A DNA stretch of 14,706 bases, from positions 1 through 14,706 of the forward strand of contig JBIKWC010000004.1 of assembly GCA_044356535.1 (NCBI GenBank), in the 5' to 3' direction. The position numbers were made by a program, and so were the translations under genes. Positions 81 through 13,992 of this stretch are shown here, in pieces. Source of the stretch: Myxococcota bacterium (GTDB lineage Bacteria > Myxococcota_A > UBA796 > GCA-2862545). Within the stretch, counting starts at the first letter, position 1; each line of letters begins with the position of its first letter. The notes beneath the pieces were generated by a model. That model made no database searches. It worked only from the letters and a program-made list of their open reading frames with translations, and had not been told where the DNA came from.

Positions 81-511
81 TGCGCCTCTCCGCCCCGTTG
101 TGCCTCGTCGCGTCGCTCGCCACCGGCTGCGAGCGCGACCCTACGTTCTTCGGCTACTGGGACCTCGACCAGGTGACGCGCGGGGGGGTGGTCCAGGACG
201 ACATGGGGTTCCTGGAGATCCTCGAGGACGGCTCGGTCGCGGTGTTCGTCCGGTACACCTGGAGCGGCGGCGCGTTCGTGCCCGTGGCGCAGCCGGAGAT
301 CGTGCTCGGCACCACCGACGCGGTCGCGCAGGAGCCGTTCGGGAACTACAAGACCAAAGGCGAGACCTACGCCCTGCTGCTGGAGCCGTTCGACGCCACG
401 TTCGACGTCACCGACTACCGAGGGGACCGCGCCGAGCTCGATGCCGCGGAGGCCGGGTGGCCGACGGGCGCGGGGGAGCTCGCGCCGACCACGCTGCGCC
501 TGCTGCGCTGA
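80..511 (+). CDS. small secreted lipoprotein (143 aa), function unknown
   Basis: The ATG at 80 overlaps the upstream stop. The N-terminus MRLSAPLCLVASLATGC is a signal peptide with a lipobox (L-A-T-G-C). GC3 is high throughout. The protein has an acidic, non-repetitive composition. The stop is TGA at 509-511. Confidence 0.75.
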   Translation: MRLSAPLCLVASLATGCERDPTFFGYWDLDQVTRGGVVQDDMGFLEILEDGSVAVFVRYTWSGGAFVPVAQPEIVLGTTDAVAQEPFGNYKTKGETYALLLEPFDATFDVTDYRGDRAELDAAEAGWPTGAGELAPTTLRLLR

Positions 512-513
512 CG

Positions 514-1767
514 TCAGCAGGGGCCGTTCGGGTCGCCCGGGGTGCCGAGCTCGCCGTTCGGCATCACCGCGGTCGAGGGGCACCACTGCGTCCCGTCGCC
601 GTTGTCCACGCTTGCCCACGGCGTCCCCAGCTGCATCGACGCCCCCGTCTCGTCGGGCCAGTCGGTGCCGCCGTCCCACTCCACGCGGTCGAGCTCCGTG
701 CCGTCGGGCGCGGTGAGGATCAGCTCGTCGTCGCCGTTCCCGAGCGACATCGCGCTGCCCCAGCCCCACGCGGCGGAGATGCCGCCGTTCACCACCGGAT
801 CGGCGGCGGCGGCCAACACCACCGCGGCGCCCGGCGCCACGAGCACCGCCGTCGACACCGTGAAGACCTCGCCGTCCGCGTCCGCGACCTCGAGGCCGTC
901 CAGGTCCACCGTCGCCGCCGTCGTGTTCGTGAGCTCGAACCACTCGCCGTCGTCGTCCGGCACCGTCGTCACGTCCTGCATCACCTCGGTGATCACGAGG
1001 TCGCCGTCCTCGAGGTCGTCCACCCCGGTGGTGCCGCAGTCGTTGGCTGCGCCCGGCGTCCCGGCGTCGCCGGCGCCGAAGGGGGTGACTGCCACACACC
1101 ACGAGGTCGGGTCGCCGTTGTCGCCCTCGAGGCCCGGGAGCAGCGAGAACGACGCGCCCTGCGGGTCCGGCCAGGCGACACCAGCGTCCCACCGCACCTC
1201 GTCCACCACCACGCCCGCTGGGGTCAGCAACACGAGCTCGTCGTCGTCGTTCCCGAGCTGCATCGACGCCGGGTCGAACACGAAGTCCACGACCACGCCA
1301 CCGTTGCGGGACGGGTCGCCGTCCACCCCGAACACCAGGCGCTGCCCGGGCCCCACGACGAGCGTGACGTCGACGGTGAAGGCCTGGGTCGCTGCGTCGT
1401 TCTCCACGCGGAGCCCGCGCAGATCGAGGTCTCCGCTGGTGGCGTTCCACACCTCGAACCACTCCCCGAGCGTGTCCGAGACGGCGTCCGGGTTCTTCAG
1501 CACCTCGGTGATCACGAGGTCCCCGGCCGCGAGGTCACCCGCCGGCGGCCCGCCCGTGTCGGTGTCCGAATCGGTGTCGGTGTCGGTGTCCGAATCGGTG
1601 TCGGTGTCCGAATCGGTGTCGGTGTCGGTGTCCGCGTCGGTGTCGGTGTCGGTGTCGGTGTCCGCGTCCGTATCGGTGTCCGCGTCGGTGTCGGCCGCCT
1701 TGTCGAAGCTCGTGGCGGTGAACGGCGCGCAGCCGGCGGTGAGGACGAGCAGGGTTCTCAGGGACAT
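514..1767 (-). CDS. lipoprotein with an (Asp-Thr)n acidic linker and two lamin-tail domains (LTD)
   Basis: ATG at 1767 (minus strand) with AGGAG 8 nt upstream. The start overlaps the upstream gene's stop by 10 nt. N-terminus MSLRTLLVLTAGC is a signal peptide plus lipobox. A ~46-aa DTDADTDTDSDTDT linker follows. Two repeated modules show LTD hallmarks (GDLVITEV...LGEWFEVWN / GDLVITEVM...DGEWFELTN, with VDLxGL after each). It ends ...LGTPGDPNGPC*, with the stop at 516-514. Confidence 0.85.
   Translation of the reverse strand: MSLRTLLVLTAGCAPFTATSFDKAADTDADTDTDADTDTDTDTDADTDTDTDSDTDTDSDTDTDTDSDTDTGGPPAGDLAAGDLVITEVLKNPDAVSDTLGEWFEVWNATSGDLDLRGLRVENDAATQAFTVDVTLVVGPGQRLVFGVDGDPSRNGGVVVDFVFDPASMQLGNDDDELVLLTPAGVVVDEVRWDAGVAWPDPQGASFSLLPGLEGDNGDPTSWCVAVTPFGAGDAGTPGAANDCGTTGVDDLEDGDLVITEVMQDVTTVPDDDGEWFELTNTTAATVDLDGLEVADADGEVFTVSTAVLVAPGAAVVLAAAADPVVNGGISAAWGWGSAMSLGNGDDELILTAPDGTELDRVEWDGGTDWPDETGASMQLGTPWASVDNGDGTQWCPSTAVMPNGELGTPGDPNGPC
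1555..1696 (-). repeat. imperfect hexanucleotide tandem repeat (GTCGGT/GTCCGA/GTCCGC on the plus strand; (ACCGAC)n on the coding strand) encoding the (Asp-Thr)n linker
   Basis: Direct reading shows ~23 consecutive 6-nt units (gtcggtgtcggtgtccgaatcggtgtc...) with occasional cgaatc/cgcgtc variants. On the minus strand this translates to DTDADTDTDADTDTDTDTDADTDTDTDSDTDTDSDTDTDTDSDTDT, inside CDS 514..1767. Confidence 0.9.
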
Positions 1768-2984
1768 GGCGGGTTCTCCTCACCGGGGGTGCCGAGGTCG
1801 CCCGCCCCGTACCGCGAGTCTCCAGGGCACCAGTTCTCGGCGCGGTCGTTGTCTCCCGTGTTCGTGCGGCCCGCGTCGAGCGACTTGGACGCGCCCTCCA
1901 CGTCCGGGAACGTGGGGTCGTAGGCCACCTCGTCGAGCACGCGCGTGCCGTGGACCAGGCGGACCGTCTCGCCGGAGTTCGACAGCCCGAACGACCAGCG
2001 CCACTCCCAGTCGACCGGAGCGCCGCCGTTGACCTGCTGGGCGGTGAACGAGCCGAACACCACGTACCCGTCGGCCGGCACCACCAGCGACCGGTCGACG
2101 GTGAAGTCGTCGCCGTCGTCGTTCTCCACGCCCAGGAACTGCAGGTCGACCGGCTCGTCGAGCGCGTTGTGCACCTCGAACCACTCGCCGTAGTCGCCCT
2201 CCACCTCGGCCGGGTCGGACATCAGCTCGGTGATCACGAGGTCGCCCGGGACCACGTCGGCCAGGGTGAGCCCCGTGAACGGCGCTGGGCAGGCGGGGTT
2301 CGTCGCGCCGGGGGTCCCGCGGCCTCCGACCCCGTAGACGTCGTCGTCACCGGCCAGGCACCAGCGGTCCGCGTCCGGGTCCCGGCTGGTCGACCGGCCG
2401 GACTCGAGCGGCCAGGTCGCGTCCCAGGTGACCTCGTCGAACACCACGTCCCGCCAGGTCAGGCGGATGGCGTCCTCGTCGTTGGTGAGCCCGAAGTCGG
2501 CCTCCCACACCCAGTCCACCGCCACCCCGCCGTTGGCAACAGGCAGGTCCGAGCCGCCGAACACCACGCTCGCGCCGGCCTCCACCACGAGCGGCGCCGA
2601 CACCACGAAGTCGTCGCTGCCCAGGTCCAGCACCAGCAGCCCCTGCAGGTCGATCGCCTCGCCCCGCGTGTTGGTGACCTCGAACCACTCGCCCAATGCG
2701 CTGTCGACCCCCACCGGCGCCGGCAGGAACTCGGTCACCTGCAGCTCGCCGGGCGCCACCGCCGCGAGGGGCCACGCCTCGTCGTCTGCGCCGTCGCAGT
2801 CCTGGTCCTGCCCATCCCCCGGCGCGTCCACCCCGAGGGGCGAGACCAGCGGATCGGCGTCGTCGCAGTCCCCGTCGGCCGGACCGAACCCGTCGCCGTC
2901 GACGTCGAACACGGCCGGCACCCCGGTGGACAACAAGGCGCCGCTGCAGCCGGCGAGCAGGGCGAGGAGCGGGAGCGCGCGCAT
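1758..2984 (-). CDS. lipoprotein with a DGDG/DCDD 'putative metal-binding' motif region and two lamin-tail domains (LTD); paralogue of the downstream gene
   Basis: ATG at 2984 (minus) with GGAGG ~8 nt upstream. The ATG overlaps the upstream gene's TGA by one base (TGATG). N-terminus MRALPLLALLAGCSG is a signal peptide plus lipobox. Then VFDVDGDGFGPADGDCDDADP...DGQDQDCDGADDE resembles the myxobacteria-enriched metal-binding motif. Two LTD modules follow (GELQVTEFL...LGEWFEVTN; GDLVITELMSD...YGEWFEVHN). It ends ...LGTPGEENPPCP*. The 949-aa ORF in the track is an upstream in-frame Arg-rich artefact. Confidence 0.85.
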   Translation of the reverse strand: MRALPLLALLAGCSGALLSTGVPAVFDVDGDGFGPADGDCDDADPLVSPLGVDAPGDGQDQDCDGADDEAWPLAAVAPGELQVTEFLPAPVGVDSALGEWFEVTNTRGEAIDLQGLLVLDLGSDDFVVSAPLVVEAGASVVFGGSDLPVANGGVAVDWVWEADFGLTNDEDAIRLTWRDVVFDEVTWDATWPLESGRSTSRDPDADRWCLAGDDDVYGVGGRGTPGATNPACPAPFTGLTLADVVPGDLVITELMSDPAEVEGDYGEWFEVHNALDEPVDLQFLGVENDDGDDFTVDRSLVVPADGYVVFGSFTAQQVNGGAPVDWEWRWSFGLSNSGETVRLVHGTRVLDEVAYDPTFPDVEGASKSLDAGRTNTGDNDRAENWCPGDSRYGAGDLGTPGEENPPCP

Positions 2985-4081
2985 CAGGGACCTCCGAGGG
3001 GGAGCGCGCCCGCGAGGCGGGTCTGCAGGTGCAGGAACACGGTGTCGGTGCGGGCCAGCACCGCGCTGCCGGCGAGGGGAGCAGCGTCGGGGCCGAACCG
3101 GCGGGCCTCCCACCCCAGCACCAGCGCGGTCGGTGCGCCGGGCTCCGGCGGAAGGCGCAGGCCCGCGCCCAACAGCGCCAGGGTGGAGGCGGCGCCCGGC
3201 GCAGTGGGCAACGCGGTGGTGCGGTCCACGCGCCCGAAGGCGGCGAGGGGCGTCTGGTCTCCGCTGCGGGCCCACACCGAGGCGCCCGCGGGCCGCAGCG
3301 ACCCGTCTCCGAGGAGCCCCGTGCCCAGGAGGCCGTCCACACCGGCCGCGACCCAGGGGTGGGCGATGGAGACCATGGCCCCGGCGCGGTGATCGGGCGA
3401 CTGGCCGAGCCCGTAAGAGCCGTCGCGGCCCATCACCCCGAGCATCAGGTCCAGGTCGCTCCCGCTGCGTGCCAGCGGGTGGGCCCGGGCCACGACCGTG
3501 GTGTTCACGCCGTCGTTGCGCTCCCGGCGCTGGAAGCCCTCGCCCGAGGTCACCGACACCGTCACGTCCACGAGGTCGTCGGGGGCCGTCCACGACAGCC
3601 AGCCGCCCACGTCCGACCGGGTGAAGAAGGCGCTCTCCGTCACCATCGGACGCAACAAGGGGCGCCAGGCCCAGCCCGGCTGCACCGTCATCACCCAGGG
3701 GTCGTCCACCACGCCCCCGGCGACCGTAAGGCCCGCTTGGCGCCAGTCCCAGCGCGCCTCGGCGGTCTGCACCACGGGGACCAGGCTCTCGCCCGCGACG
3801 CCCACGTAGCCCTGCTCTCCGCCCGAGCGCAGCGGCAGCAGCACGATCCGGGCCTGGGCGTCCCCCGCCGAGCGCACCCCGAGCTCGGCCCGCGCCCACG
3901 GCAGCGACACCCCGCGCGACACGCCGGTGTCCGGGAACGACGCCCCCAGGCGGCCCGCAGCGCCCACGTCGCCGAACAGGCAGCCCCCGTCGAGGGGTTC
4001 GGCGCCGAGCGGTTCGGCCCGGGAGATCGGCGCGGGCGCGCAGTCGGCGGCCTCGGCGGAGGGGGTGAAGGCGAGGATCAT
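2984..4081 (-). CDS. hypothetical protein (365 aa), Gly/Ala/Leu-rich, no recognisable domain
   Basis: ATG at 4081 (minus) overlaps the upstream stop (ATGA). Its TGA at 2986-2984 overlaps the downstream ATG. Codon bias is good over the whole frame. In-frame sequence upstream of the ATG is Arg-rich junk. The N-terminus MILAFTPSAEAADCAPAPI is not a classical signal peptide, so the start or localisation is uncertain. Confidence 0.6.
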   Translation of the reverse strand: MILAFTPSAEAADCAPAPISRAEPLGAEPLDGGCLFGDVGAAGRLGASFPDTGVSRGVSLPWARAELGVRSAGDAQARIVLLPLRSGGEQGYVGVAGESLVPVVQTAEARWDWRQAGLTVAGGVVDDPWVMTVQPGWAWRPLLRPMVTESAFFTRSDVGGWLSWTAPDDLVDVTVSVTSGEGFQRRERNDGVNTTVVARAHPLARSGSDLDLMLGVMGRDGSYGLGQSPDHRAGAMVSIAHPWVAAGVDGLLGTGLLGDGSLRPAGASVWARSGDQTPLAAFGRVDRTTALPTAPGAASTLALLGAGLRLPPEPGAPTALVLGWEARRFGPDAAPLAGSAVLARTDTVFLHLQTRLAGALPLGGP

Positions 4082-5460
4082 CGTCCGTACGCTCCGAGCA
4101 GGGGTCCGAACGTGTCGAGCGCCGACACGAACAGTGCGTGGTCCGCGAGGGTGCGGTCGAGGTCCGGCAGCGCGTCCGCGACCCGCTCGTCGACGAAGGC
4201 GTCCGTACGGCCCCGCAGATCGGTCCACAACGCAGGCAGGGCGGGCTCGAGCTCGTGCGTGACGGTGCGCGCGTGGGCGCCGCCCAGCACGCCGCCCAAC
4301 ACCCGGGCCAGCGCCAGGGCGTCGTCGGTCCGGAGCGCTTCGAGGTCGCGGAGGGCCTTGTTGTGGTCGAGGGACTCCTGGAACGACGACCAGGTCTGGG
4401 TCTTGAACCCCTGGGCGCCGTCCGTGACGCCCCCGAGGCGCACGTCGGCGTCGGGGCGGGACCACAGGAGCTCCGCGGCGGCCACCAGGCGGGCGGGGTT
4501 GTCGTCGAACGACGCAGCGGGGATGGCCCACGAGTCCGGCAGGACCGGCGGATCCACGACCTCCCGCAGCTGAAGGAGCTCGTCGTCTTCGGGGCCCGGC
4601 GCGCCACGGTCCCAGGCCACCACGTACCGGAGGGCGGGGAGCGAGGCGATCCCAGCGCTCTCGCGGCGGGCGACGTCGAGCACGCGGAAGCCGTCGGGCG
4701 CGGGCCAGCGGGAGAGGAGGTGGTCGAGCTGCGCGTGTTGTTCTGCGTCGAGCGAGAGGAGCTCCGGCGCCCCGGGCCGGAACCGTCGACCCGAACCCAC
4801 CACCTCCGTGGCCTCCACGAGCTGCTCCCGCGTCACGCCTTCCTCGGTGACGTCGGTCCACAGGTGGTCCACGACGATCCCGCGGTCGGTGGGGACCGCA
4901 GGCCCCGTCCCCACCCCGGTGGTCGCGACCTGCTCGAGCTCGGTCACGTACGCCTCGGTGAACGCGCGCGCAGCCTCCTCGAGCGCTGGACGCGGGTACC
5001 CGGCGGCGTCCAACAACACCAGGAGGCCGAGCACCCCGCGGCGCACGTCCACGATGTAGGGGCCGAACCCGGCGCCGTCGAAGTCGTTGAACTCGAGCCG
5101 CAGCGGGACCTCGCCCGCCGTCGGACCGGGCCCCTCTCCGGGGAGGAAGGTGCCCACGTTCTCGGGGTGCGGATCGCCCACCAACAACACGGCGGCCGAG
5201 CCGGGGACGGAGACGAAGGCCGTGGGCGCGCGCCCGGTTCCGGGGCGGTCGAGGTCGCGCAGGAACACCGCGAGCGAGCCGCGCATGTAGTCGTAGGGGT
5301 CCTCCGCCATCGCGGCGTACTTCTCGGCCAGCGCGTCCCAGCGCCCCTCCCACACCCGGTTGTCGTCGGTGAGGGTGTCGACGAGCCACGCGCGCCGGAA
5401 CGCCTCCGGGGCAGTTGCGCCCGAACACCCCACCAGGAGCGCAGCCACTGCGATCCGCAC
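4078..5460 (-). CDS. DUF2252-like lipoprotein (460 aa), first gene of the minus-strand operon
   Basis: GTG at 5460 (minus), preceded by GAGGTGG. N-terminus (M)RIAVAALLVGCSG is a signal peptide plus lipobox. The motifs YDYMRGSLAVFLRD and LLVGDPHPENVGTF resemble the conserved FYRG...A.DL and CGDAHL.NFG blocks I associate with DUF2252 proteins; this is pattern recall, not a search. The stop at 4080-4078 overlaps the next ATG. Confidence 0.75.
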   Translation of the reverse strand: MRIAVAALLVGCSGATAPEAFRRAWLVDTLTDDNRVWEGRWDALAEKYAAMAEDPYDYMRGSLAVFLRDLDRPGTGRAPTAFVSVPGSAAVLLVGDPHPENVGTFLPGEGPGPTAGEVPLRLEFNDFDGAGFGPYIVDVRRGVLGLLVLLDAAGYPRPALEEAARAFTEAYVTELEQVATTGVGTGPAVPTDRGIVVDHLWTDVTEEGVTREQLVEATEVVGSGRRFRPGAPELLSLDAEQHAQLDHLLSRWPAPDGFRVLDVARRESAGIASLPALRYVVAWDRGAPGPEDDELLQLREVVDPPVLPDSWAIPAASFDDNPARLVAAAELLWSRPDADVRLGGVTDGAQGFKTQTWSSFQESLDHNKALRDLEALRTDDALALARVLGGVLGGAHARTVTHELEPALPALWTDLRGRTDAFVDERVADALPDLDRTLADHALFVSALDTFGPLLGAYGR

Positions 5461-5595
5461 CCACCACCTCGCGAGCGGGCTATCGGGCGAACCTCCGCGC
5501 GGCGGTGCCGTCTCGCATTCGTTGCGCAGCCCTCACGGGTTGGTCACACGGTGCGGCGGCGCCGCGTCGACTACAGTGCCGGCCCGGAGGGGTGG
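5461..5595. promoter_or_regulatory. divergent intergenic region, presumably holding promoters for the minus-strand lipoprotein operon and the plus-strand sensor/channel operon
   Basis: 135-bp non-coding gap between the divergent starts at 5460 (-) and 5596 (+). It contains a GGAGGGG ribosome-binding site at 5586-5592 for the plus-strand gene. I cannot read confident -35/-10 hexamers in this GC-rich context. Confidence 0.3.
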
Positions 5596-6702
5596 ATGTC
5601 GTTCGGCAGGCACGTCGTGGTGGTGATGGTGGTGTCGGCGGCCGCGGTCCTGCTCGGCAGCCTCGCCGTCGCCGACGGTCTGTTCGGCTCCCTCGTCGAG
5701 AAGGTCGAGGTCGACCGGTACCAGGCGATCGAGACCGCCCTGGTCGATCGCCTGGAAGAGGCGCAGAACAAGGCCCTCGCGCGCGCCACGATGGTCGCTG
5801 CCCTCCCCAGCGTGCAGGCGCTCGTGGCGGCCCAGGATCGGACCGGACTGCAGGCGGAGCTGGCCGAGCTGTACCAGTCCGCGCACGACCGCGGCGGGGT
5901 GGCGCAGGCCCAGTTCCACGTCCCGCCAGCGACCTCGCTCCTGCGGCTGCACGCGCCCGAGCGGTTCGGCGACGACCTGTCGAAGTTCCGCCCCATGGTC
6001 GTCGACGTGAACCAGGACCACGAGACCCGGAAGGGGCTGTCCATCGCCGTCGCGGGGCCCGCCATCTTCGGCATCACCCCCGTCCACGACGCCGCCGGCG
6101 CCCACGTCGGGAGCTTCGAGATCGGGCTCGACGTGGCGGATGCCCTCGACGCCCTCAAGGCGCGCTTCGAGGTGGACGCCGCGATCTGGCTCGACGAGAA
6201 GACCCTGCGCGACGTGGCCACCGGGGCCCCGCCCGGCAGCCTGTCGGAGGACAAGCGCGTGGGGCGCTTCCTGCGCTGGCACAGCACCCACGACGAGCGC
6301 ACCGCCGGCCTCGTCTCCGACGCCGACCTCGACGGGGGCGCGCACCGCTACGTGCGCGAGGTGCAGGGCGTGGCCTACGGGGTCGCGCTGGTGCCCGTCA
6401 CGAACTACGCGGGCAAGCCGCTCGGGGTCGCCATGGTCGCCGCCGACTTCAGCTCCTCGCGCGGTGCCCGCCTGCGTACCCGGGTGTGGTTGGGGCTCGT
6501 CGGGCTCGTCGGGAGCACCGTCCTCGCCGGCATCGTGTCCGTGGGCATCCGCGGCTTCGTGCTCCGCCCGCTCGGTTCCGTCGCGGCGACGCTCAAGGCG
6601 GTGGCGGACGGCGACCGGTCGAAGGGGCTCGAGACGGATGGGTTGTGCGCCGAGTTCGAGCCCGTGGCCGCCGAGATCGAGCGCCTGCGGAGCCGGCCGT
6701 GA
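5596..6702 (+). CDS. membrane protein with TM, a periplasmic Cache-like sensor domain, a second TM and a HAMP domain, and no output domain
   Basis: ATG at 5596, 4 nt after GGAGGGG. TM1 is HVVVVMVVSAAAVLLGSLAVA. The ~260-aa periplasmic region contains FHVPPATSLLRLHAPERFGDDLSKFRPMVVDV and ...YVREVQGVAYGVALVPV blocks typical of Cache-type (double-Cache / Cache_3-Cache_2-like) chemoreceptor or kinase sensors. TM2 is VWLGLVGLVGSTVLAGIVSVGI. It is followed by VLRPLGSVAATLKAVADGDRSKGLETDGLCAEFEPVAAEIERL, which has the HAMP pattern (P...A..GDL.......DE...L...FN.M). The protein ends 8 aa later at TGA 6700-6702. Confidence 0.8.
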   Translation: MSFGRHVVVVMVVSAAAVLLGSLAVADGLFGSLVEKVEVDRYQAIETALVDRLEEAQNKALARATMVAALPSVQALVAAQDRTGLQAELAELYQSAHDRGGVAQAQFHVPPATSLLRLHAPERFGDDLSKFRPMVVDVNQDHETRKGLSIAVAGPAIFGITPVHDAAGAHVGSFEIGLDVADALDALKARFEVDAAIWLDEKTLRDVATGAPPGSLSEDKRVGRFLRWHSTHDERTAGLVSDADLDGGAHRYVREVQGVAYGVALVPVTNYAGKPLGVAMVAADFSSSRGARLRTRVWLGLVGLVGSTVLAGIVSVGIRGFVLRPLGSVAATLKAVADGDRSKGLETDGLCAEFEPVAAEIERLRSRP

Positions 6703-7748
6703 CCCCGGCGCTCGCGGTGCTCGTCTCTGGGTCCGCGTTCGCCGCGCCCGAAGGGGTGACGCTCCCGACGGGCCGGGGGCTCCCCGTCCGGGTGCGGGTG
6801 GGTGTCCAGTACGTCGACGTGGGAAGCGTCGACGAGAACGCGCACACCTTCGACGGAACGGTGGATCTCCGGGCCGTGTGGATCGACGGCCGGGAGGCCT
6901 CGGCGCGCCGCGACGTCCTCGAGCTGCGCGGCGAGGCGCTGGAGGGCGCGCTCGACCAGACCTGGATCCCCGAGCTCGCCGTGGACAACCTCGTGGGCGA
7001 ACCCGCCCGGCTCGAGCGCACGTTGTCGGTCGCGCCCTCCGGCGAGCTCGAGCTCCTCCAGCGCGTCACCGGCACGTTCGCGATCCCCTTCGACCCTGCC
7101 GACTTCCCGTTCGATCGGAACGCGCTCGAGGTCGCGGTCGCCGTGCGCGGCGACGACACCAACCGCGTGGCGCTCGACTTCGTGCAGGCCGACCTCGCCT
7201 TCAGCCACGCCAACCCGGGTGTCGTGGTGCCCGGCTTCGACCATGGCCTCGTGGACCTCCGCCGCGCGCCGATCCGCGGCTGGCACGACGTCCTGCACAG
7301 CCGCGTCGTGGCTGCGCTCGCGGTCCGGCGGGTGGCCAGCACCACCATCCCGGCGGTGTTCCTGCCGCTGTTCGCGTCGTTGCTCATCCCGTTGCTGGCC
7401 ACCTGGCTCAACGACGTGGAGGACGGCTCGTTCAAGGTCGACGCGTTCGAGCTCGCGAACGTCGTCGTCGGCGGGCTGTTCGCGGTGATCGCGCTCAACT
7501 TCGCCATCGCCTCGAGCTACACGGACCTGGCCAGCGGCGACAACACGGTCAACCGCCTGTTCGCGTTGAACTACTCGGCGTTGGGCGTCGCCCTCCTGAT
7601 CGTGATCGTGTTGTACCGCTTCCGGTTCGTCGAGCGGTGGCTCGGCGCGTCGGTGCAGGAGGAGCTGTTCCGCTGGCTCGTGTGGGGGGTGCCCACGATC
7701 GTGTTCGGCGCGGCCGTGGCGGTGGTGAGCGCCGCCTGGGCGGGTTGA
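6699..7748 (+). CDS. prokaryotic pentameric ligand-gated ion channel (pLGIC / Cys-loop receptor family, GLIC/ELIC-like) homologue
   Basis: GTG at 6699 overlaps the upstream TGA (GTGA). Signal peptide (M)TPALAVLVSGSAFAAPEG. The extracellular domain has the family pattern VRVRVGVQYVDVGSVDENAHTFDGTVDLRAVWIDGR, then WIPELAVDNL, and the signature FPFD (IPFDPADFPFDRNALEV) with no Cys pair, as in bacterial members. Four C-terminal TM helices follow. M1 is TTIPAVFLPLFASLLIPLLATWL with the conserved Pro. M2 is ELANVVVGGLFAVIALNFAIASS, close to GLIC M2. M3 is NRLFALNYSALGVALLIVIVLY. M4 is FRWLVWGVPTIVFGAAVAVVSAA. Total length 349 aa. Confidence 0.85.
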   Translation: MTPALAVLVSGSAFAAPEGVTLPTGRGLPVRVRVGVQYVDVGSVDENAHTFDGTVDLRAVWIDGREASARRDVLELRGEALEGALDQTWIPELAVDNLVGEPARLERTLSVAPSGELELLQRVTGTFAIPFDPADFPFDRNALEVAVAVRGDDTNRVALDFVQADLAFSHANPGVVVPGFDHGLVDLRRAPIRGWHDVLHSRVVAALAVRRVASTTIPAVFLPLFASLLIPLLATWLNDVEDGSFKVDAFELANVVVGGLFAVIALNFAIASSYTDLASGDNTVNRLFALNYSALGVALLIVIVLYRFRFVERWLGASVQEELFRWLVWGVPTIVFGAAVAVVSAAWAG

Positions 7749-8687
7749 TCAGCGGAGCGAGCGGGCCAGCCGCACCCGCAGCGTTTCGTCGTCCAGGAGC
7801 TCGGCCATCGCGGCTACCCGGGACTGCGCGTGTTGGTCTCCCGGGCGGATCCGCAGGACCATCAAGAGCGCCATCGCGCGGAGGCGCACGTGGCCTCCGT
7901 CTCCGGCGTGCCGGGCGGCGTCGGCGGCGTGGGCCAGGGCCTCGTCGGCGCGTCCGGACCGCCACGCGGCGTAGGCCAGGCCGTTGCAGCGGCGGGCGCG
8001 GGCGAAGGGGGGCCCGATCTCGGGGAGCGAGCGGTACAGCGCCTCGGCGCCAGCGTGGTCGCCAGAGGCGTTCCGTCGGAACGCGTGGTGATCGACCCAC
8101 CGAGCGCGCAGCACGGAGGCGGTGTCGCGGTCGGCGACGAGGGGCAGCGCGGCCTCCACCTCGTCGAGCAGCGTGAGGTCGCGCTCGCGGGCCTTGGTCG
8201 CCACGAAGTCGTCGGCCAGCCGACGCTCGATGCGGGCCTCGGGTGGGGCGTGGGCTTCGTCGCGGCGGGCCTCGGCGGTGGCGGCGGCCATGGCCCCGGT
8301 GTCGTGTGCGCGCTGCGCCACGGACGCGCGAGCGAGGGCGAGCCAGACCCGGGCCTCGGGAGCGGCCGTGACCGGCGGGTGGTCCCAGGCGCGGATCAGG
8401 TCGGCGCAGACGGACACGGGCAGGTCGGTGAACCGCGAGTGGTACGCGCCCATCCACGCGAGGCGGCGGAGGACCTCTCCAGGGAGCCCGAACCGCCGGA
8501 GCAACCGCTGGCCCCACTGCCCTCCGTCCCGGGTGCCGCGGGCCCGCAAGCGGCGGAGCGCGCGCTCGGTCGAGGCCGGCGTGGTCGGCGCCAGGGTCTC
8601 GGCGAGCGCGGTGAGGGTACCGTGTTCGGAGACGAGGGCGTCGAGGTAGGCGGCCCAGTCGTAGCCGGGCGGGGCAGTGGTGGGCAT
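7749..8687 (-). CDS. hypothetical helical protein (312 aa), possibly a TPR-like or regulatory protein
   Basis: ATG at 8687 (minus); MPTTAPPGYDWAAYLDALVSEHGTLTALAETL... Coding bias is consistent. The C-terminal half is Ala/Arg-rich with helical-repeat character (NGLAYAAWRSGRADEALAHAADAARHAGD). The stop at 7751-7749 abuts the convergent pLGIC stop (TGATCA). No confident domain assignment. Confidence 0.65.
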   Translation of the reverse strand: MPTTAPPGYDWAAYLDALVSEHGTLTALAETLAPTTPASTERALRRLRARGTRDGGQWGQRLLRRFGLPGEVLRRLAWMGAYHSRFTDLPVSVCADLIRAWDHPPVTAAPEARVWLALARASVAQRAHDTGAMAAATAEARRDEAHAPPEARIERRLADDFVATKARERDLTLLDEVEAALPLVADRDTASVLRARWVDHHAFRRNASGDHAGAEALYRSLPEIGPPFARARRCNGLAYAAWRSGRADEALAHAADAARHAGDGGHVRLRAMALLMVLRIRPGDQHAQSRVAAMAELLDDETLRVRLARSLR

Positions 8688-8750
8688 GTCCGGGATCGTG
8701 TCCGGTCCGCGGCGGGGGCCGGGGGCTACCGGGTGGGCAGGAGGTGGAAC

Positions 8751-9776
8751 GTGAACCGGACCATCATCATCGGAGACATCCACGCGTGCCACGCCGAGCT
8801 CGTCGAGCTCCTGGACGCCGTCGGCCTCACCCCCACGGACCGGCTGATCAGCGTCGGGGACGTGGTCGATCGGGGCCCCTCGCCGGGGGAGGTCGTGGAC
8901 CTGCTGCGGTCGCGCCCGAACACAGTCGTGGTGTGCGGGAACCACGAGCGCAAACACGTGCGGGGCCAGCAGACGCCCGGGCTCCTCGGCTTCGGCCAGG
9001 AGATCACCCGGCTGCAGCTGGGGGCGCGCTACGCGGAGGTCGTGGCGTGGATGGCCACACTGCCCTACTCGTTCGAGGACGACGCCGTGCGCGTGGTCCA
9101 CGCGGGCCTGATCCCGGGCACGCCGCTGGGTGACACCCCCGCGGACATCCTGTCGGGCACGACCAGCGGCGAAGCCCGCCTCCGGGAGCAGCTGGGGGGC
9201 GTCTACTGGCCGGAGCTGTACACCGACGACAAGGTGGTGGTGTTCGGGCACCACGTGGTGGGCCCGGAGGCGCTGGTGGTGCGCGACCGGGTGTACGGCC
9301 TGGACACGGGCTGCTGCCACGGCCAGTTCCTGACGGCGCTGATCCTGCCGGAGCGGCGCCTGGTCTCGGTGCGGGCCCACGCGAACCACTGGAAGCAGAC
9401 GCAGCAGCGTTGGCAGCTCCCGGTGCTCGCTTCTCGGCCCTGGGCAGCGTGGACGTTCGACCAGGTGGCGAAGAAGGCAGCAGAGCTGACGGACCGACAC
9501 CCGGCAGCTGCGGACTGGCTGGCTTCGGTGGTGGCGTGGTCGGAGGCAGTGTTGGGCTGGGTCCCCGCGCTGGCGGACGCGATGGACACGCGGTTGGCGG
9601 GGGTCGCGGACGCGCCCCGGGACCTCGTGGGCCACCCGGCGCACCCGACGCTGGTCCGGTACGCCCAGGGCAAGCTGTCGAGGACCCACCTGGGCTGCAC
9701 CTCGCCCGCCGCGGTGTTCGCGCTCGCGGACGCGCTGGGCGTACCCGTGGCGCTCCCGCGGTCGCCTCCGGGGTGA
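8751..9776 (+). CDS. PPP-family metallophosphoesterase (Ser/Thr protein phosphatase / ApaH-like) with a ~120-aa C-terminal extension
   Basis: GTG at 8751, 6 nt after AGGAGG (8739-8744). Canonical motifs are present: IIIGDIHAC (a GDxHG variant), GDVVDRGP (GDxVDRG), and GNHE. Downstream come VVHAGL and GHHV. 341 aa. The C-terminal ~120 aa (WKQTQQRWQLPVL...) lie outside the phosphatase core. Confidence 0.85.
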   Translation: MNRTIIIGDIHACHAELVELLDAVGLTPTDRLISVGDVVDRGPSPGEVVDLLRSRPNTVVVCGNHERKHVRGQQTPGLLGFGQEITRLQLGARYAEVVAWMATLPYSFEDDAVRVVHAGLIPGTPLGDTPADILSGTTSGEARLREQLGGVYWPELYTDDKVVVFGHHVVGPEALVVRDRVYGLDTGCCHGQFLTALILPERRLVSVRAHANHWKQTQQRWQLPVLASRPWAAWTFDQVAKKAAELTDRHPAAADWLASVVAWSEAVLGWVPALADAMDTRLAGVADAPRDLVGHPAHPTLVRYAQGKLSRTHLGCTSPAAVFALADALGVPVALPRSPPG

Positions 9777-9860
9777 GCCATCGGAGGCATCGTCCGCATC
9801 GACGTGTCTTGATTCCGGCGACCCCCGGTCGGGCCCCGAGGTGCGGGGTAAGGTGGGACC

Positions 9861-10190
9861 ATGGATCCGTCGCCGCTGTCCACGTTTCTCGCCCAGCTCG
9901 AGGACCCTGGGGAGTGCTGGCCCCTCTCGGCCGCGATCGCTGCGGCGGCGCCGACGCGGTGGCAGCCCGGCGGACCGTTGCTCGTGGTGGAAGAGCACAC
10001 CGCGTGCAGCGCCCCGCCCGTCCGTGATCCCGGTCTCGCGTTCGGAGCGGTGCCGCCTGCGCCGCTTCTGGCCGACCTCGCGCAACGCGCCGCAGCGCGG
10101 TGGACCACCGGGGAGGGCTGGCTCCGCGTCTCCCACCCGCTGTCGCCGACGGACGCATCGCCGGGAGCGGCCCGGTTCCTGCGTCGTGGC
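9861..10190 (+). CDS. questionable small ORF, or remnant of a frameshifted gene, in the 415-bp gap between convergent genes
   Basis: ATG at 9861 preceded by AAGGTGGG. The first ~110 codons (MDPSPLSTFLAQLEDPGECWPLSAAIAAAAPTRWQPGGPLLVVEEH...) have reasonable GC3 bias. The frame has no stop until 11153 and runs exactly antisense, codon-aligned, to the acyltransferase gene from 10191. The true end is therefore undefined. The end coordinate I give is only the point where antisense overlap begins. Confidence 0.2.
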
Positions 10191-10961
10191 TCAGCGCGCC
10201 AGGTCGTCCAGCGCGGCCTGCATCTGCGCGACGATCCCGTCGTAGAGCCCCTGCAGGATCGCAGGATCGTCGGCTGCCTCCGGCGGGTGACCGAGCGCCA
10301 CCGGCGGCAGGAACCGCGTGGTGCACTTCACGGGCAGGGGCAGGTGGAACATCGGACCCAGCGCCACCCCCCACGGCAGGCCCAGGAACAGCGGCCAGGT
10401 GTCGCTTCGCAGCCACTGATCCGCGCCGATCGCGTGCGCCAGCCGCCGTCCATCCCGGAGCACCACGAACCCGGAGTGGCCGCCGTGGTTCACCATCGGC
10501 ACCACGGGGACCTGGTGCCGCAGCGCCAGCTTCAGCCAGCCCGTCCGGCCCTCGAAGTGGATGCGGTTCCGGTCGCGCCAGGGGCGGAACGCCTCGGCGT
10601 TGCCCCCCGGGAACACGATGACCTTGCGGCCCCGCGCGAAGGCCGTGGCTGCAGCGTCGTGGCCTGCGCGCACCGCGCCCACCCGCGCGAGCAACGAACC
10701 CAGGAGCGGCGCATCGATCACGGCGTCGTGGGTCAGTCCCTGCCAGGGATCCTCCACGCCGCGTTCGCGCAACCAGCGGGCGCCCACGCCGATCGCCTCC
10801 ACGAACGTGACGCCCGAGTTGTGGTTGCCGACGAGCAGCGCGGGACCCGCCGGGATGGTCTCGAGGCCCTGCACCTCGAGCCGGAACCACAGGCGGCACG
10901 CGCGATCCACCCACGGCGCGAGTCGCCGGGCCAACTCCGGGTCGAAGGTGTCGGGTTCCAC
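10191..10961 (-). CDS. LPLAT-superfamily (PlsC-like) lysophospholipid/glycerol-phosphate acyltransferase
   Basis: Minus-strand frame ends TGA at 10193-10191 (...AILQGLYDGIVAQMQAALDDLAR*). The acyltransferase blocks PALLVGNHNSGV (motif I region) and RKVIVFPGGNAEAF (FPEG-type motif III) are present. The start is uncertain: GTG at 10961 gives 256 aa, and an alternative GTG at 10991 would overlap the divergent esterase's ribosome-binding site. Confidence 0.7.
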   Translation of the reverse strand: MEPDTFDPELARRLAPWVDRACRLWFRLEVQGLETIPAGPALLVGNHNSGVTFVEAIGVGARWLRERGVEDPWQGLTHDAVIDAPLLGSLLARVGAVRAGHDAAATAFARGRKVIVFPGGNAEAFRPWRDRNRIHFEGRTGWLKLALRHQVPVVPMVNHGGHSGFVVLRDGRRLAHAIGADQWLRSDTWPLFLGLPWGVALGPMFHLPLPVKCTTRFLPPVALGHPPEAADDPAILQGLYDGIVAQMQAALDDLAR

Positions 10962-10992
10962 CTGGCTCGGGTATCCTGCGCCGGAGGCCACG

Positions 10993-11850
10993 ATGTTGCT
11001 TTCGTTGCTCTCGCTCGGATGCCGCTCGGAAGAACCCGACCCGGACAGCCCGGACGCGCCCGACGAGACCGCCCACTCCGGGGGCACCGGGTCCGGGGGC
11101 CACGTCCCCGCCGACCCGTCCCCCGGCTGCGCGAGCGGGGCTGGCCTGGCTGACGGAGACCACCAGCTCCTCGTCGACGGCCTCCAGCGGGAGTACGCGT
11201 CGCGGGTCCCGGCCCTGGCGGGTCCGTTGCCGCTCGTCGTGGACCTCCACGGCACCGGGGGCACCCGTCGCCTGCAGCAGCGCCTGTCCGGGCTCGACGA
11301 CCTGGCAGAGGCCGAAGGGTTCGCCATCGTGTGGCCGGAGAGCCTCGAGCTCGGGCCCGTGAAGGCCTTCGACATCAGCTGCGACAACGCCGACGTGGAC
11401 TTCGTGGTGCAGCTCGTCGAAGCCGTCGGCCGGGACGTGTGCATCGATCGGGCCCGCACGTTCGTGACGGGGCTCTCGAACGGCGGGTACTTCTCGAACG
11501 TCCTGCTGGCCACCCACCCGGAGGTCTTCGCAGCCGGTGGGCCGGTCTCGAGCGGCCTGGGCGTGGTCCCCAGCCAGTGCCCCACGACCACCCCCCGGCC
11601 GGCCACCTTCGTCCACGGCGACGCCGACGAGTTCGTCGACCCCTCCGAGTCCGAGGAGGCGATGACCTGGTGGTCGGCGGTGAACGGTTGCACTGGGACA
11701 GACACCGACGCCGAAGGCTGTTCGGTCGGCACGGGGTGCGTGGCCCCCACCCGCCTGTGTCTCGGACCCGGCGCCACCCACATCGACATCTACGCGCGGT
11801 ACGACACCACTGCGCGCCTCACCGAGCTGTTTCGCGCCGCCGTGCCCTGA
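10993..11850 (+). CDS. lipoprotein esterase of the PHB-depolymerase / LpqC-like alpha/beta-hydrolase family
   Basis: ATG at 10993 with GGAGG 5 nt upstream. N-terminus MLLSLLSLGC is a signal peptide plus lipobox. Family motifs: PLVVDLHGTGG, GFAIVWPE, and a nucleophile elbow GLSNGG (G-x-S-x-G) in ...RARTFVTGLSNGGYFSNVLLATHPEVFAAGGPVSS. 285 aa. TGA at 11848-11850. Confidence 0.85.
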   Translation: MLLSLLSLGCRSEEPDPDSPDAPDETAHSGGTGSGGHVPADPSPGCASGAGLADGDHQLLVDGLQREYASRVPALAGPLPLVVDLHGTGGTRRLQQRLSGLDDLAEAEGFAIVWPESLELGPVKAFDISCDNADVDFVVQLVEAVGRDVCIDRARTFVTGLSNGGYFSNVLLATHPEVFAAGGPVSSGLGVVPSQCPTTTPRPATFVHGDADEFVDPSESEEAMTWWSAVNGCTGTDTDAEGCSVGTGCVAPTRLCLGPGATHIDIYARYDTTARLTELFRAAVP

Positions 11851-11867
11851 CGAGGTAGGCTCGCCCC

Positions 11868-13148: not shown

Positions 13149-13594
13149 CGGAGTCCGCCGAGGCGCGCGAGCGCCAGACCGTCGCCAGCCTCTTCGTGCT
13201 GCACGCCGCGCTGCTGATCGGGTTCGACGTGGTGACGGGCTTCGCCTCGCTCCGCACCACCGCCATGACGGCCGCGGTCTCCCAGGACGCCGGGAACGGC
13301 TGGCAGATCGGGGGCCCGGCCCTGGTGGCGCTGCTCCAGTTCGTCGCTGCGGCGGGCGTCCTGGCCTGCGGGGGCTTCGAGGGGTACGCCGGGGCCCGGC
13401 TGCTCCAGGGTCACGTGCTCCCCACCCGCGGCCCAGCCCTCGCGGGTCTCGTGGGCTCCGTCCTCCTGCTGCCCACGTCGGTGGTGGGCTGCAGCGCGTG
13501 CGGGTTCCTGGGCTGGCCCCTCGCGCTGGGGGTGGCGCTGTCGACCGCGTTCGTCGCGTTCCGCGCGCCCGACCCGCGCGCTGGGGATCGCTGA
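13145..13594 (+). CDS. small hydrophobic membrane protein (149 aa), function unknown
   Basis: GTG at 13145 overlaps the ligD-Pol stop (GTGA). There are several hydrophobic stretches (LFVLHAALLIGFDVV; IGGPALVALLQFVAAAGVLACGGF; LAGLVGSVLLLPTSVVGCSACGFLGWPLALGVALSTAFVAF). GC3 bias is good. The start could instead be the internal ATG (MTAAVSQ...). Confidence 0.55.
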   Translation: MTESAEARERQTVASLFVLHAALLIGFDVVTGFASLRTTAMTAAVSQDAGNGWQIGGPALVALLQFVAAAGVLACGGFEGYAGARLLQGHVLPTRGPALAGLVGSVLLLPTSVVGCSACGFLGWPLALGVALSTAFVAFRAPDPRAGDR

Positions 13595-13686
13595 CGGCGA
13601 ACGTCCGCGGGCGTCCGCGCGGAGGCGCCAGCCGACGGCACGGGCCCTGCGGTGGGAGGCACGGTCCCCGGACCGGAGGAGCGCCC

Positions 13687-13980
13687 ATGCCCACCGAACC
13701 TCGACCCACGCCGCCCGCAGCCGGACTCGCCCGGTGGGAGGAGGACGGAGGAACCCCGGCCCTTCCGCTGGCGTTCGTGCCCCCGTCACCCGATGAGGAG
13801 CGGTCGCTGCTGCTCCTCGGCGCCGCGGTGGTGCAGCAGTGGAACCTGTTGGCCATGCCGGTCCGCCGCCAGCTGTTCGACGCTGCGCTCGCGCGCGCCG
13901 GCGCCCCCGAGCTGGCTGTGGTGCAGCGGCTCCTCGCCCGGTTCCTGCACGTCCACAAGGACGATGCCCCTACCTCCTGA
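13687..13980 (+). CDS. small hypothetical protein (97 aa)
   Basis: ATG at 13687, 6 nt after GGAGGA (13675-13680). MPTEPRPTPPAAGLARWEEDGGTPALPLAFVPPSPDEERSLLLLGAAVVQQWNLLAMPVRRQLFDAALARAGAPELAVVQRLLARFLHVHKDDAPTS*. Codon bias is consistent. No known motif. Confidence 0.5.
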   Translation: MPTEPRPTPPAAGLARWEEDGGTPALPLAFVPPSPDEERSLLLLGAAVVQQWNLLAMPVRRQLFDAALARAGAPELAVVQRLLARFLHVHKDDAPTS

Positions 13981-13992
13981 CCTGGAGTCCGC

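What the first reader, a model, noticed from the sequence alone, without database searches (positions are those of the whole stretch)
1555..1696. In-frame hexanucleotide tandem repeat encoding a ~46-residue (Asp-Thr)n linker, a candidate length-variable site
About 23 near-perfect 6-nt units (ACCGAC on the coding strand) form a microsatellite-like tract inside the LTD lipoprotein gene. Such tracts are prone to slipped-strand mispairing. Because the unit is 6 nt, gains and losses stay in frame and would vary linker length rather than switch the gene off. The highly acidic DT linker between the lipid anchor and the LTD modules could act as a flexible spacer or a cation-binding stalk. The paralogue upstream uses a different spacer (the DGDG/DCDD motif region), which suggests modular linker swapping.
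Basis: seen in the sequence. Interest (0 to 1): 0.5.

Follow-up and report, generated by a model that had tools for sequence, protein, structure and literature searches.

The report
Variable acidic Asp-Thr tether in lipoprotein
A bacterial membrane-anchored protein carries a 46-residue floppy, negatively charged Asp-Thr spacer encoded by an imperfect 6-base DNA repeat, and close relatives show that such spacers gain and lose whole repeat units, which is real but fairly ordinary biology.

Summary
Window 1555-1692 (minus strand) holds 23 in-frame hexamers encoding 46 residues: 17 Asp-Thr, 3 Asp-Ala and 3 Asp-Ser. Only 15 of 23 units are the consensus GACACC, and the longest pure run is 4 units, with 18/24/30/42-nt higher-order repeats.

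The tract lies between a lipoprotein signal (LTAG|C) and two lamin-tail (LTD) domains, and is predicted disordered.

No second copy of this exact gene exists in the searched collections, so its own copy number could not be compared. In near-identical alleles of homologous genes, including the orthologue in the same conserved four-gene cluster, the only length differences are in-frame indels of 30, 36 and 6 nt inside the tract, at direct repeats.

About 4-21% of LTD relatives carry such tracts, nearly always just after a lipobox. In one Myxococcota protein they link LTDs and directly precede a MYXO-CTERM anchor.

Best reading: a polyanionic, disordered, anchor-proximal stalk that changes length by replication slippage, analogous to staphylococcal Ser-Asp repeats but not a member of that family.

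"Linker swapping" between the two paralogues is not supported, because each keeps its own N-terminal module across roughly 50% divergence.

Interest is modest.

The parts
1555..1692 (-). Imperfect hexanucleotide repeat of 23 units (15 GACACC, 3 GACGCG, 3 GATTCG, 1 GATACG, 1 GACACG). It encodes residues 26-71, (Asp-Thr/Ala/Ser)23, with Asp invariant at every odd position.
   Evidence: internal perfect direct repeats at offsets 18/24/30/42 nt
1729..1767 (-). Lipoprotein signal peptide MSLRTLLVLTAG|C (residues 1-13). The lipobox is LTAGC and Cys13 is the predicted lipidated +1 residue.
   Evidence: Read directly from the translation. Homologues share lipobox Cys at residues 8-25. Not tested experimentally.
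1693..1728 (-). Short non-repetitive segment APFTATSFDKAA (mature +2 to +13) between the lipidated Cys and the repeat. Position +2 is Ala, not Lys or Asp.
   Evidence: the M. xanthus and E. coli inner-membrane retention rules (+2 Lys and +2 Asp) are quoted from PMC3222651
1776..1781 (-). Shine-Dalgarno GAGGAG, 8 nt upstream of the ATG. It lies inside the 3' end of the upstream paralogue, and the two genes overlap by 10 nt.
   Evidence: sequence; gene coordinates
1063..1554 (-). GGPPAG hinge plus the first lamin-tail (LTD) beta-sandwich, approximately residues 72-235.
   Evidence: Pfam PF00932; AF2 pLDDT >90; Foldseek matches to lamin A/C, B1 and B2 Ig-like tail domains, probability 1.00, target TM up to 0.69
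514..1035 (-). Second LTD beta-sandwich (approximately residues 245-417) and the stop codon.
1758..2984 (-). Upstream paralogue: a lipoprotein (MRALPLLALLAG|C) with a MopE-type Asp/Cys-rich motif in place of the DT tract, followed by two LTDs.
   Evidence: the identical protein is on record in two other assemblies
2984..4081 (-). Conserved hypothetical protein (365 aa) of the same operon. Its stop overlaps the start of the paralogue by 1 nt, and its ATG overlaps the DUF2252 stop (ATGA).
   Evidence: orthologue in L027 at 49% identity
4078..5460 (-). DUF2252 lipoprotein (VRIAVAALLVG|C), the first gene of the four-gene cluster.
   Evidence: orthologue in L027 at 46% identity

Best explanation
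The tract encodes an intrinsically disordered, strongly polyanionic tether (23 Asp in 46 residues, no basic residue). It joins the N-terminal lipid anchor of a probably outer-membrane lipoprotein to two folded lamin-tail (Ig-like) modules.

Its job is to act as an extended, self-repelling stalk, up to about 16 nm contour length for the repeat alone. The stalk holds the LTD modules away from the membrane, and a disordered N-terminal linker may also help Lol-type trafficking.

At the DNA level it is an old, imperfect hexamer array with 18-42-nt higher-order repeats. It evolves by replication slippage or recombination between short direct repeats. Because every unit is a multiple of 3 nt, this gives in-frame gains and losses of 2-14 residues. 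The result is allelic differences in stalk length, not on/off switching.

Shown: the anatomy, the predicted disorder, the conserved anchor-proximal position in relatives, and in-frame indel polymorphism in homologous tracts.

Inferred: membrane destination, the spacer function, and that this particular tract varies in its own population.
For: Anatomy:
- The order is lipobox, then 12 residues, then (D-T/A/S)23, then GGPPAG, then two LTDs.
- AF2 gives residues 1-70 as coil at pLDDT 45-52, against >90 for both LTDs. The folded part matches lamin Ig-like tails.

Signs of DNA-level expansion:
- Thr codon ACC is used 15/17 times in the tract against 17/33 in the rest of the gene (Fisher p=0.013).
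- The rare GATTCG unit recurs with period 18/24.

Length polymorphism in relatives:
- In the orthologue within the same four-gene cluster, L029 and L032 have identical 3-kb upstream flanks and 16 SNPs in the 3 kb downstream. The gene is identical except for one 30-nt indel in the tract, bounded by an 11-nt direct repeat.
- A third allele (P0006) has the same 23 units in a different arrangement. That is 5 events in 46 tract residues against 7 in 399 elsewhere, p=0.004.
- In an independent homologue, L034 and L033 show 0 mismatches in 4 kb of flanks plus the gene, and one 36-nt indel inside a 76-nt perfect period-36 repeat. Each allele is seen in at least two independent assemblies.
- Long tracts (46-52 aa) vary by 10-12 aa, a 28-aa tract varies by 2 aa, and tracts of 22 aa or less show no length change.

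Conserved position next to an anchor:
- All 25 tract-bearing proteins among the 120 word-search hits, and 6 among the 150 unbiased hits, carry the tract N-terminally. In the unbiased six it follows a lipobox Cys at residues 13-20.
- Unrelated lipoproteins in L027, L028, L002 and L021 also carry such tracts just after a lipobox.
- In L007, DT tracts link LTDs, and a 92-aa tract directly precedes a MYXO-CTERM anchor (TIGR03901, 29.8 bits against a cutoff of 20).

Literature:
- Disordered N-terminal linkers are needed for Lol sorting in E. coli (10.1101/2021.01.05.425367).
- SD-repeat regions of 25-275 dipeptides lie between the ligand domain and the anchor, and are thought to project the domain from the surface (PMC3794999 and PMC8360574).
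Against: - No second copy spanning this exact tract was found, so its own variability is unobserved.
- The repeat is imperfect, with at most 4 pure units, so slippage rates are probably low.
- The window and its distant orthologue (P0006/P0121) both have exactly 23 units. That could reflect selection for a set length rather than free variation.
- Several homologue clusters show no length differences (clusters 4-6).
- Metagenome assemblies can mis-handle repeats. However, the 11-nt junction homology in L029/L032 is too short to collapse a k>=21 graph, and the 268-aa and 256-aa alleles recur in independent assemblies.
- The spacer function and membrane localisation are inferred, not measured.
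Confidence: 0.7

Rival explanations
1. The tract is a static linker. It is a decayed relic of an old expansion, now held at a fixed length by selection, and it is not length-variable in this organism.
For: - Only 15 of 23 units are consensus, and the longest pure run is 4 units.
- The window and the 48%-identical orthologue both have 23 units, or 46 aa.
- Clusters 4-6 show no tract-length change among up to 6 members.
Against: - Near-identical alleles of the orthologue differ by 5 units (L029/L032) and by unit arrangement (P0006 vs P0121). Another homologue differs by 6 units.
- The window tract holds perfect direct repeats of 26-37 nt. These are at least as good a substrate as the 11-nt repeat used in the L029/L032 indel.
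Confidence: 0.2
2. The tract is primarily a divalent-cation (Ca2+/Mg2+) or mineral-binding module rather than a passive spacer, for example one that bridges to LPS-bound cations or binds metal.
For: - Asp is invariant at every second residue.
- The paralogue carries a MopE-type putative metal-binding Asp/Cys motif at the equivalent position.
- Other family members carry DDDD-type tracts, and 54 of 150 unbiased relatives have windows of at least 45% D/E.
Against: - There was no direct test.
- Free interchange of T/S/A and indels of 2-12 residues between near-identical alleles argue for loose sequence and length constraints.
- The AF2 model shows no ordered site.
- This reading is compatible with, and not exclusive of, the stalk reading.
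Confidence: 0.25
3. The tract is a substrate for post-translational modification (O-glycosylation or phosphorylation of Thr/Ser), as the Ser-Asp repeats of staphylococcal adhesins are for SdgA/SdgB.
For: - Thr or Ser fills 20 of the 23 even positions.
- The only NCBIfam matches are to the SD-repeat regions of SdrD/ClfB/ClfA/SdrC, at E about 1e-7.
- SDR glycosylation protects against proteolysis (PMC3794999).
Against: - Ala, which cannot be modified, freely replaces Thr/Ser here and is frequent in relatives.
- No glycosyltransferase or kinase gene is found in the window's operon or in the orthologous clusters.
- The NCBIfam scores are far below the cutoffs and reflect composition.
Confidence: 0.12
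4. The tract, or its length in the window, is an assembly artefact.
For: - Both public short-read assemblies with identical DNA break in or near it. The JGI contigs end at about window 1564 and start at about 1357, and Logan contig L035 ends at 1642.
- The longest exactly repeated k-mer in the tract is 37 nt.
Against: - L035 matches the window with 0 mismatches over 1718 bp, including the first 51 nt of the tract.
- The reading frame is intact, with GC3 of 0.95.
- Orthologues in independent assemblies have the same architecture and a similar tract length.
Confidence: 0.05

Closest known systems
Ser-Asp dipeptide repeat (R/SDR) region of staphylococcal Clf/Sdr MSCRAMM adhesins
   Same: - It is a long alternating Asp-X dipeptide tract next to the surface anchor, between the anchor and the folded binding domains.
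- It is encoded by a short in-frame DNA repeat with an 18-nt higher-order unit.
- Ala-containing variants exist (SdrI/SdrJ).
- It is thought to project the functional domain away from the surface (PMC3794999 and PMC8360574).
- The window tract's only NCBIfam matches are to these regions.
   Different: - Here X is mostly Thr rather than Ser.
- The anchor is an N-terminal lipid in a diderm (probably Myxococcota), not a C-terminal LPXTG tag on Gram-positive peptidoglycan.
- The cargo is LTD modules, not DEv-IgG A domains.
- No SdgA/B-like glycosyltransferase lies nearby.
- Scores of 27-30 bits against cutoffs of 999-2500 show similarity of composition, not homology.
Intrinsically disordered N-terminal linkers of Gram-negative outer-membrane lipoproteins (RcsF, NlpD, Pal; El Rayes et al. 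2021)
   Same: It is a disordered segment directly after the lipidated Cys. Its length and disorder, rather than its sequence, matter for Lol trafficking. The window tract is predicted disordered and tolerates T/S/A exchange and indels in relatives.
   Different: The E. coli linkers are not dipeptide repeats, are not polyanionic, and are not encoded by tandem DNA repeats. A sorting role for this tract is untested.
Disordered regions adjacent to MYXO-CTERM anchors in Myxococcota surface proteins (e.g. TraA)
   Same: This is an anchor-proximal IDR in the same phylum (PMC11980579). In L007 a 92-aa DT tract sits directly before a bona fide MYXO-CTERM tag on an LTD protein.
   Different: The window protein has no MYXO-CTERM and ends in ...PNGPC. 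Its anchor is an N-terminal lipobox.
Simple-sequence contingency loci (phase-variable genes of Neisseria, Haemophilus, Campylobacter)
   Same: A tandem repeat inside a surface-protein gene that changes copy number by slipped-strand mispairing.
   Different: A 6-nt unit keeps the frame, so there is no on/off switch. The tract is impure, with at most 4 perfect units. The indels observed in relatives are multi-unit events at 11-40-nt direct repeats, which implies much lower rates.

Membership tests
Lamin tail domain (LTD, PF00932) proteins | Match to the Pfam LTD profile above the gathering score | tested here: met
   109 bits against a cutoff of 34.3, in two stretches, E=2e-31
Lamin tail domain (LTD, PF00932) proteins | Ig-like beta-sandwich fold of the lamin tail | tested here: met
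   The AF2 model has pLDDT >90 over residues 72-417. Foldseek matches lamin A/C, B1 and B2 tail domains at probability 1.00, with target TM of 0.5-0.69.
Bacterial lipoproteins (SPase II substrates) | Signal peptide ending in a lipobox [LVI][ASTVI][GAS]C | tested here: met
   MSLRTLLV-LTAG-C at residues 1-13. A homologous position of the lipobox Cys is seen in 79 of 121 family members. This is a sequence criterion only.
Bacterial lipoproteins (SPase II substrates) | Actual lipidation and membrane localisation | not testable with these tools
   Needs globomycin sensitivity, palmitate labelling or fractionation.
Staphylococcal Clf/Sdr MSCRAMM family | NCBIfam family score above the cutoff | tested here: not met
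   27-30 bits against cutoffs of 999-2500. The match is confined to the repeat.
Staphylococcal Clf/Sdr MSCRAMM family | C-terminal LPXTG sortase anchor and an N-terminal A domain | tested here: not met
   The protein ends ...GTPGDPNGPC with no LPXTG, and its only domains are LTDs.
Phase-variable simple-sequence contingency loci | Long perfect short-unit tract whose copy change shifts the reading frame or promoter spacing | tested here: not met
   The unit is 6 nt and in frame. The longest pure run is 4 units, and 8 of 23 units are variant.
Length-polymorphic in-frame coding tandem repeats (VNTR-type) | Copy-number differences between otherwise near-identical alleles | tested here: inconclusive
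   Met for homologous tracts, with indels of 30, 36 and 6 nt. Not testable for the window's own tract, because no second copy spans it.
MYXO-CTERM-anchored proteins | C-terminal TIGR03901 sorting tag | tested here: not met
   No NCBIfam hit in the window protein. The tag is present in the L007 homologue.
Bacteroidota lipoprotein export signal (LES) | Acidic residues immediately after Cys+1, at positions +2 to +5 (from my own knowledge of Lauber et al. 2016) | tested here: not met
   The mature N-terminus is C-A-P-F-T-A-T-S-F-D-K-A-A. The acidic tract starts at +13.

The most novel reading that the evidence does not exclude
The (Asp-Thr/Ser/Ala)n tracts are a clade-wide, dedicated stalk module of Myxococcota-type envelopes. 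They are placed next to whichever anchor is used (N-terminal lipid or C-terminal MYXO-CTERM) and between Ig-like modules. Their Thr/Ser residues are modified, or their Asp residues chelate Ca2+, so that the tract stiffens into a rod of tunable length. Slippage-driven length alleles would then set how far LTD modules reach from the cell surface. This would be a diderm counterpart of the glycosylated staphylococcal SD-repeat stalk.
Probability: 0.15. Interest if true: 0.5.

Novelty: new variant of a known kind. Interest (0 to 1): 0.3.

Why it matters
The finding gives a concrete example, backed by sequence evidence, of an anchor-proximal polyanionic dipeptide-repeat stalk in diderm (probably Myxococcota) lipoproteins. 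I found no paper describing this feature, although it recurs in many uncultured lineages.

It shows that these tracts are hotspots of in-frame length polymorphism. That matters in two practical ways:
- Short-read assemblies break or may mis-size genes here.
- The tracts could serve as strain markers.

It also flags a conserved four-gene envelope cluster of unknown function (a DUF2252 lipoprotein, a hypothetical protein and two LTD lipoproteins).

It does not overturn any concept. Disordered lipoprotein tethers, Ser-Asp stalks and slippage in coding repeats are all established.

Tried and rejected
Searches for a second copy of the window's own tract:
- An exact look-up of the 417-aa protein found nothing on record.
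- The search for related loci on GTDB genomes and JGI metagenome contigs found relatives no closer than 51% identity.
- Looking up the identical neighbouring paralogue found two more assemblies, but both end inside the tract.
- An exact look-up of the 68-aa and 42-aa cut products failed, including for the positive control, so it was uninformative.

Checks on possible artefacts:
- Contig breaks as evidence of population heterogeneity were rejected. A 37-nt exact internal repeat explains a k=31 break on technical grounds.
- Coding on the opposite strand across the tract was rejected. The plus-strand ORFs 100..1923 and 542..2032 have the wrong GC1/GC2/GC3 pattern.

Literature and bias:
- Searches for Asp-Thr repeats by name and by sequence string returned only irrelevant hits, such as oligo-dT.
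- The 21% tract frequency from the word-indexed search is biased, because the query contained the tract. An unbiased search with the tract removed gave 6 of 150, though that list is dominated by giant multi-LTD proteins.

Families considered and rejected:
- Membership of the Sdr/Clf family, a contingency locus, the Bacteroidota LES and MYXO-CTERM were each considered and rejected (see the membership tests).
Full report
**What is in the sequence**

Window 1555-1692 is a tandem array on the minus strand. It reads, in frame, as 23 hexamers encoding DTDADTDTDADTDTDTDTDADTDTDTDSDTDTDSDTDTDTDSDTDT.
- TRF finds the array with periods 12/18/24/30 at 76-83% matches.
- The degenerate pattern (GAYNCN)6 occurs 18 times there, against 0 in 200 dinucleotide-preserving shuffles.
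- The array is imperfect. 15 units are GACACC, 3 are GACGCG (Asp-Ala), 3 are GATTCG (Asp-Ser), 1 is GATACG and 1 is GACACG.
- The longest pure hexamer run is 4 units.
- Perfect direct repeats of 26-37 nt exist at offsets of 18, 24, 30 and 42 nt.
- Asp is invariant at all 23 odd positions.
In frame the unit is GAC-ACC rather than ACC-GAC.

**The host gene**

A GC3 frame plot and Pfam identify the gene as 514..1767 on the minus strand, 417 aa. Its features are:
- a GAGGAG Shine-Dalgarno sequence 8 nt upstream of the ATG;
- a signal peptide ending in the lipobox LTAG|C;
- 12 ordinary residues, then the 46-residue tract, then a GGPPAG hinge;
- two lamin-tail domains (PF00932, 109 bits against a cutoff of 34.3).

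AlphaFold2, run with a 48-sequence alignment, gives pLDDT >90 for both beta-sandwiches. Residues 1-70 score 45-52 with no secondary structure. The folded part matches lamin A/C, B1 and B2 Ig-like tails.

The mature protein is very acidic, with 87 D+E against 8 K+R. The tract itself has 23 Asp and no basic residue.

**Genomic context**

The gene is the last of four abutting minus-strand genes:
- a DUF2252 lipoprotein (5460..4078);
- a 365-aa hypothetical protein (4081..2984);
- a paralogous lipoprotein with a MopE-type Asp/Cys motif and two LTDs (2984..1758);
- the DT-tract gene (1767..514).

The same four genes occur in loci L027, L029 and L032 from marine metagenomes, each 46-49% identical to its window counterpart, but there the DT-tract gene comes first.

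Reciprocal scores show that the two LTD paralogues diverged before these lineages split:
- DT-LTD against DT-LTD scores 263 bits, against 164 bits to its own paralogue.
- MopE-LTD against MopE-LTD scores 330 bits.

The two N-terminal modules are therefore old and paralogue-specific. This does not support recent "linker swapping".

The closest named relatives are MAGs labelled Myxococcota or Deltaproteobacteria. Together with 72-77% GC, that suggests a Myxococcota-type source, which is an inference.

**Is the tract length-variable?**

The direct test on this gene could not be done.
- The full-length protein is not on record.
- The best relatives in GTDB genomes and JGI metagenome contigs are at most 51% identical.
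- The assemblies that share identical DNA all stop in or near the tract.

I therefore compared members of >=90%-identity clusters of homologues that carry such tracts.

Orthologue cluster (same four-gene cluster):
- P0121 (445 aa, 5 contigs) and P0122 (435 aa) have no amino-acid mismatch and one 10-residue gap inside the tract.
- At the DNA level, L029 and L032 share an identical 3-kb upstream flank and differ at 16 sites in the 3 kb downstream, so they are distinct strains.
- Within the gene they differ only by a 30-nt indel bounded by the 11-nt direct repeat GACACCGATAC.
- That homology is too short to collapse an assembly graph at k>=21.
- A third allele, P0006, has the same 23 units in a different arrangement. 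That is 5 events in 46 tract residues against 7 in 399 elsewhere (p=0.004).

Independent single-LTD lipoprotein:
- The 268-aa allele is carried by P0097 and P0123 (3 contigs each).
- The 256-aa allele is carried by P0124 and P0125.
- They differ by 12 residues in the tract.
- L034 and L033 have 0 mismatches over 4 kb of flanks plus the gene, and one 36-nt indel within a 76-nt perfect period-36 repeat.

Other clusters:
- A third cluster shows a 2-residue difference in a 28-aa tract.
- Three clusters with tracts of 22 aa or less show none.

This class of tract therefore does gain and lose whole units in frame, more so when long, through short direct repeats. The window tract, at 46 aa with internal perfect repeats of 26-37 nt, belongs to the unstable class by analogy. 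That last step is an inference.

Inside the window gene, codon homogeneity points to DNA-level expansion rather than codon-independent selection for amino acids. ACC is used for 15 of 17 Thr codons in the tract against 17 of 33 outside (p=0.013), and the rare GATTCG unit recurs periodically.

**What the tract is for**

Position is the strongest clue.
- Among the 120 hits of the word-indexed search, 25 carry a strict (D[TSA])>=6 tract. All are N-terminal, before the first LTD, and 12-52 aa long. This frequency is inflated because the query contained the tract.
- An unbiased HMMER search with residues 72-417 found 8,107 LTD relatives. 6 of the top 150 carry a tract, and all six have a lipobox Cys at residues 13-20.
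- Unrelated lipoproteins in L027, L028, L002 and L021 also have such tracts just after the lipobox.
- In a complete Myxococcota chromosome (L007), a 1351-aa protein uses DT tracts of 64, 70 and 102 aa between LTDs. A 92-aa tract sits directly before a MYXO-CTERM surface-sorting tag (TIGR03901, 29.8 bits against a cutoff of 20).

The tract thus behaves as a generic linker that is preferentially placed next to the membrane anchor.

Relevant literature:
- E. coli outer-membrane lipoproteins need disordered N-terminal linkers of adequate length for Lol sorting (10.1101/2021.01.05.425367).
- Myxobacterial MYXO-CTERM proteins have adjacent disordered regions (PMC11980579).
- Staphylococcal Ser-Asp repeats of 25-275 dipeptides lie between the ligand domain and the anchor. 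They are thought to project the ligand domain away from the surface (PMC3794999 and PMC8360574).
- The +2 residue here is Ala, not the Lys associated with inner-membrane retention in M. xanthus (PMC3222651). That is weakly consistent with an outer-membrane destination.

I conclude that the tract is a disordered polyanionic stalk or tether. Cation binding and Thr/Ser modification remain untested possibilities. The free use of Ala, and the absence of glycosyltransferase genes in the window and in the orthologous clusters, argue against modification.

**Comparison with known families**

The tract works like the staphylococcal SD-repeat region. Its only NCBIfam hits are to those regions. The scores are 27-30 bits against cutoffs of 999-2500, and the protein lacks LPXTG and A domains, so it is not a member.

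It is not a contingency locus, because the unit is in frame and the array is impure. It does not fit the Bacteroidota LES, because the acidic run starts at +13. It has no MYXO-CTERM tag.

I found no paper describing Asp-Thr repeat linkers.

**Verdict**

- It is a length-polymorphic, disordered acidic tether in an LTD lipoprotein.
- It is a new variant of a well-known kind, of modest interest.
- Its own variability is inferred from relatives rather than observed.
- The "near-perfect microsatellite" and "linker swapping" parts of the interpretation are not supported.

Noticed in passing
window 514-5460 (minus strand); L027 6001-11028; L029 and L032 from 3001 to the locus end: A conserved four-gene envelope cluster of unknown function: a DUF2252 lipoprotein, a ~360-aa hypothetical protein, a MopE-motif LTD lipoprotein and a DT-tract LTD lipoprotein. 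Gene ends overlap (ATGA; 1 nt; 10 nt). All four are 46-49% identical between the window and L027, but the gene order is circularly permuted, with the DT-LTD gene last in the window and first in L027/L029.
   Followed up: partly
L007 5164-9219 (OZ245034.1, Myxococcota chromosome): A 1351-aa protein with four LTDs separated by DT-type tracts of 64, 70 and 102 aa. A final 92-aa tract lies directly before a MYXO-CTERM sorting tag (TIGR03901 above cutoff). A further 64-aa D-A/T/S tract lies in another ORF at L007 2032-2223 (minus strand).
   Followed up: partly
window ~1357, ~1564 and 1642: Public short-read assemblies holding identical DNA are fragmented here. A JGI 135-kb contig starts at about 1357, a JGI 7.6-kb contig ends at about 1564, and Logan contig L035 ends at 1642 inside the 4xGACACC run, with 0 mismatches over 1718 bp. 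The tract contains an exact 37-nt internal repeat, so the breaks are expected on technical grounds and do not show heterogeneity.
   Followed up: yes
window 5482-7748 (plus strand): Two genes lie divergent from the operon. One is a dCache_3 sensor-domain protein (5482-6702, E=2e-28). The next ORF (6600-7748) has a weak, sub-threshold match to the neurotransmitter-gated ion-channel ligand-binding domain (E=3e-4, 20.6 bits against a cutoff of 26), so it may be a prokaryotic pentameric-channel-like protein.
   Followed up: no
window 8610-14706: The remaining genes appear unrelated housekeeping or repair functions:
- a calcineurin-like phosphoesterase (8610-9776, plus strand);
- an acyltransferase (10191-10994, minus strand);
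- an S9/PHB-depolymerase-type esterase (10900-11850, plus strand);
- a LigD primase-polymerase domain protein (11868-13148, plus strand, E=3e-84);
- a homocysteine S-methyltransferase-like ORF that runs off the window end (13981-14706, plus strand).
   Followed up: no
window 1555-1692 compared with L027 6100-6237 and L029: The window tract and the tract of its 48%-identical orthologue both have exactly 23 units (46 aa), with 15 and 13 GACACC units respectively and a longest pure run of 4 in each. This holds although a sister allele (L032) has 18 units. It is unexplained whether this is coincidence or selection for a preferred stalk length.
   Followed up: partly
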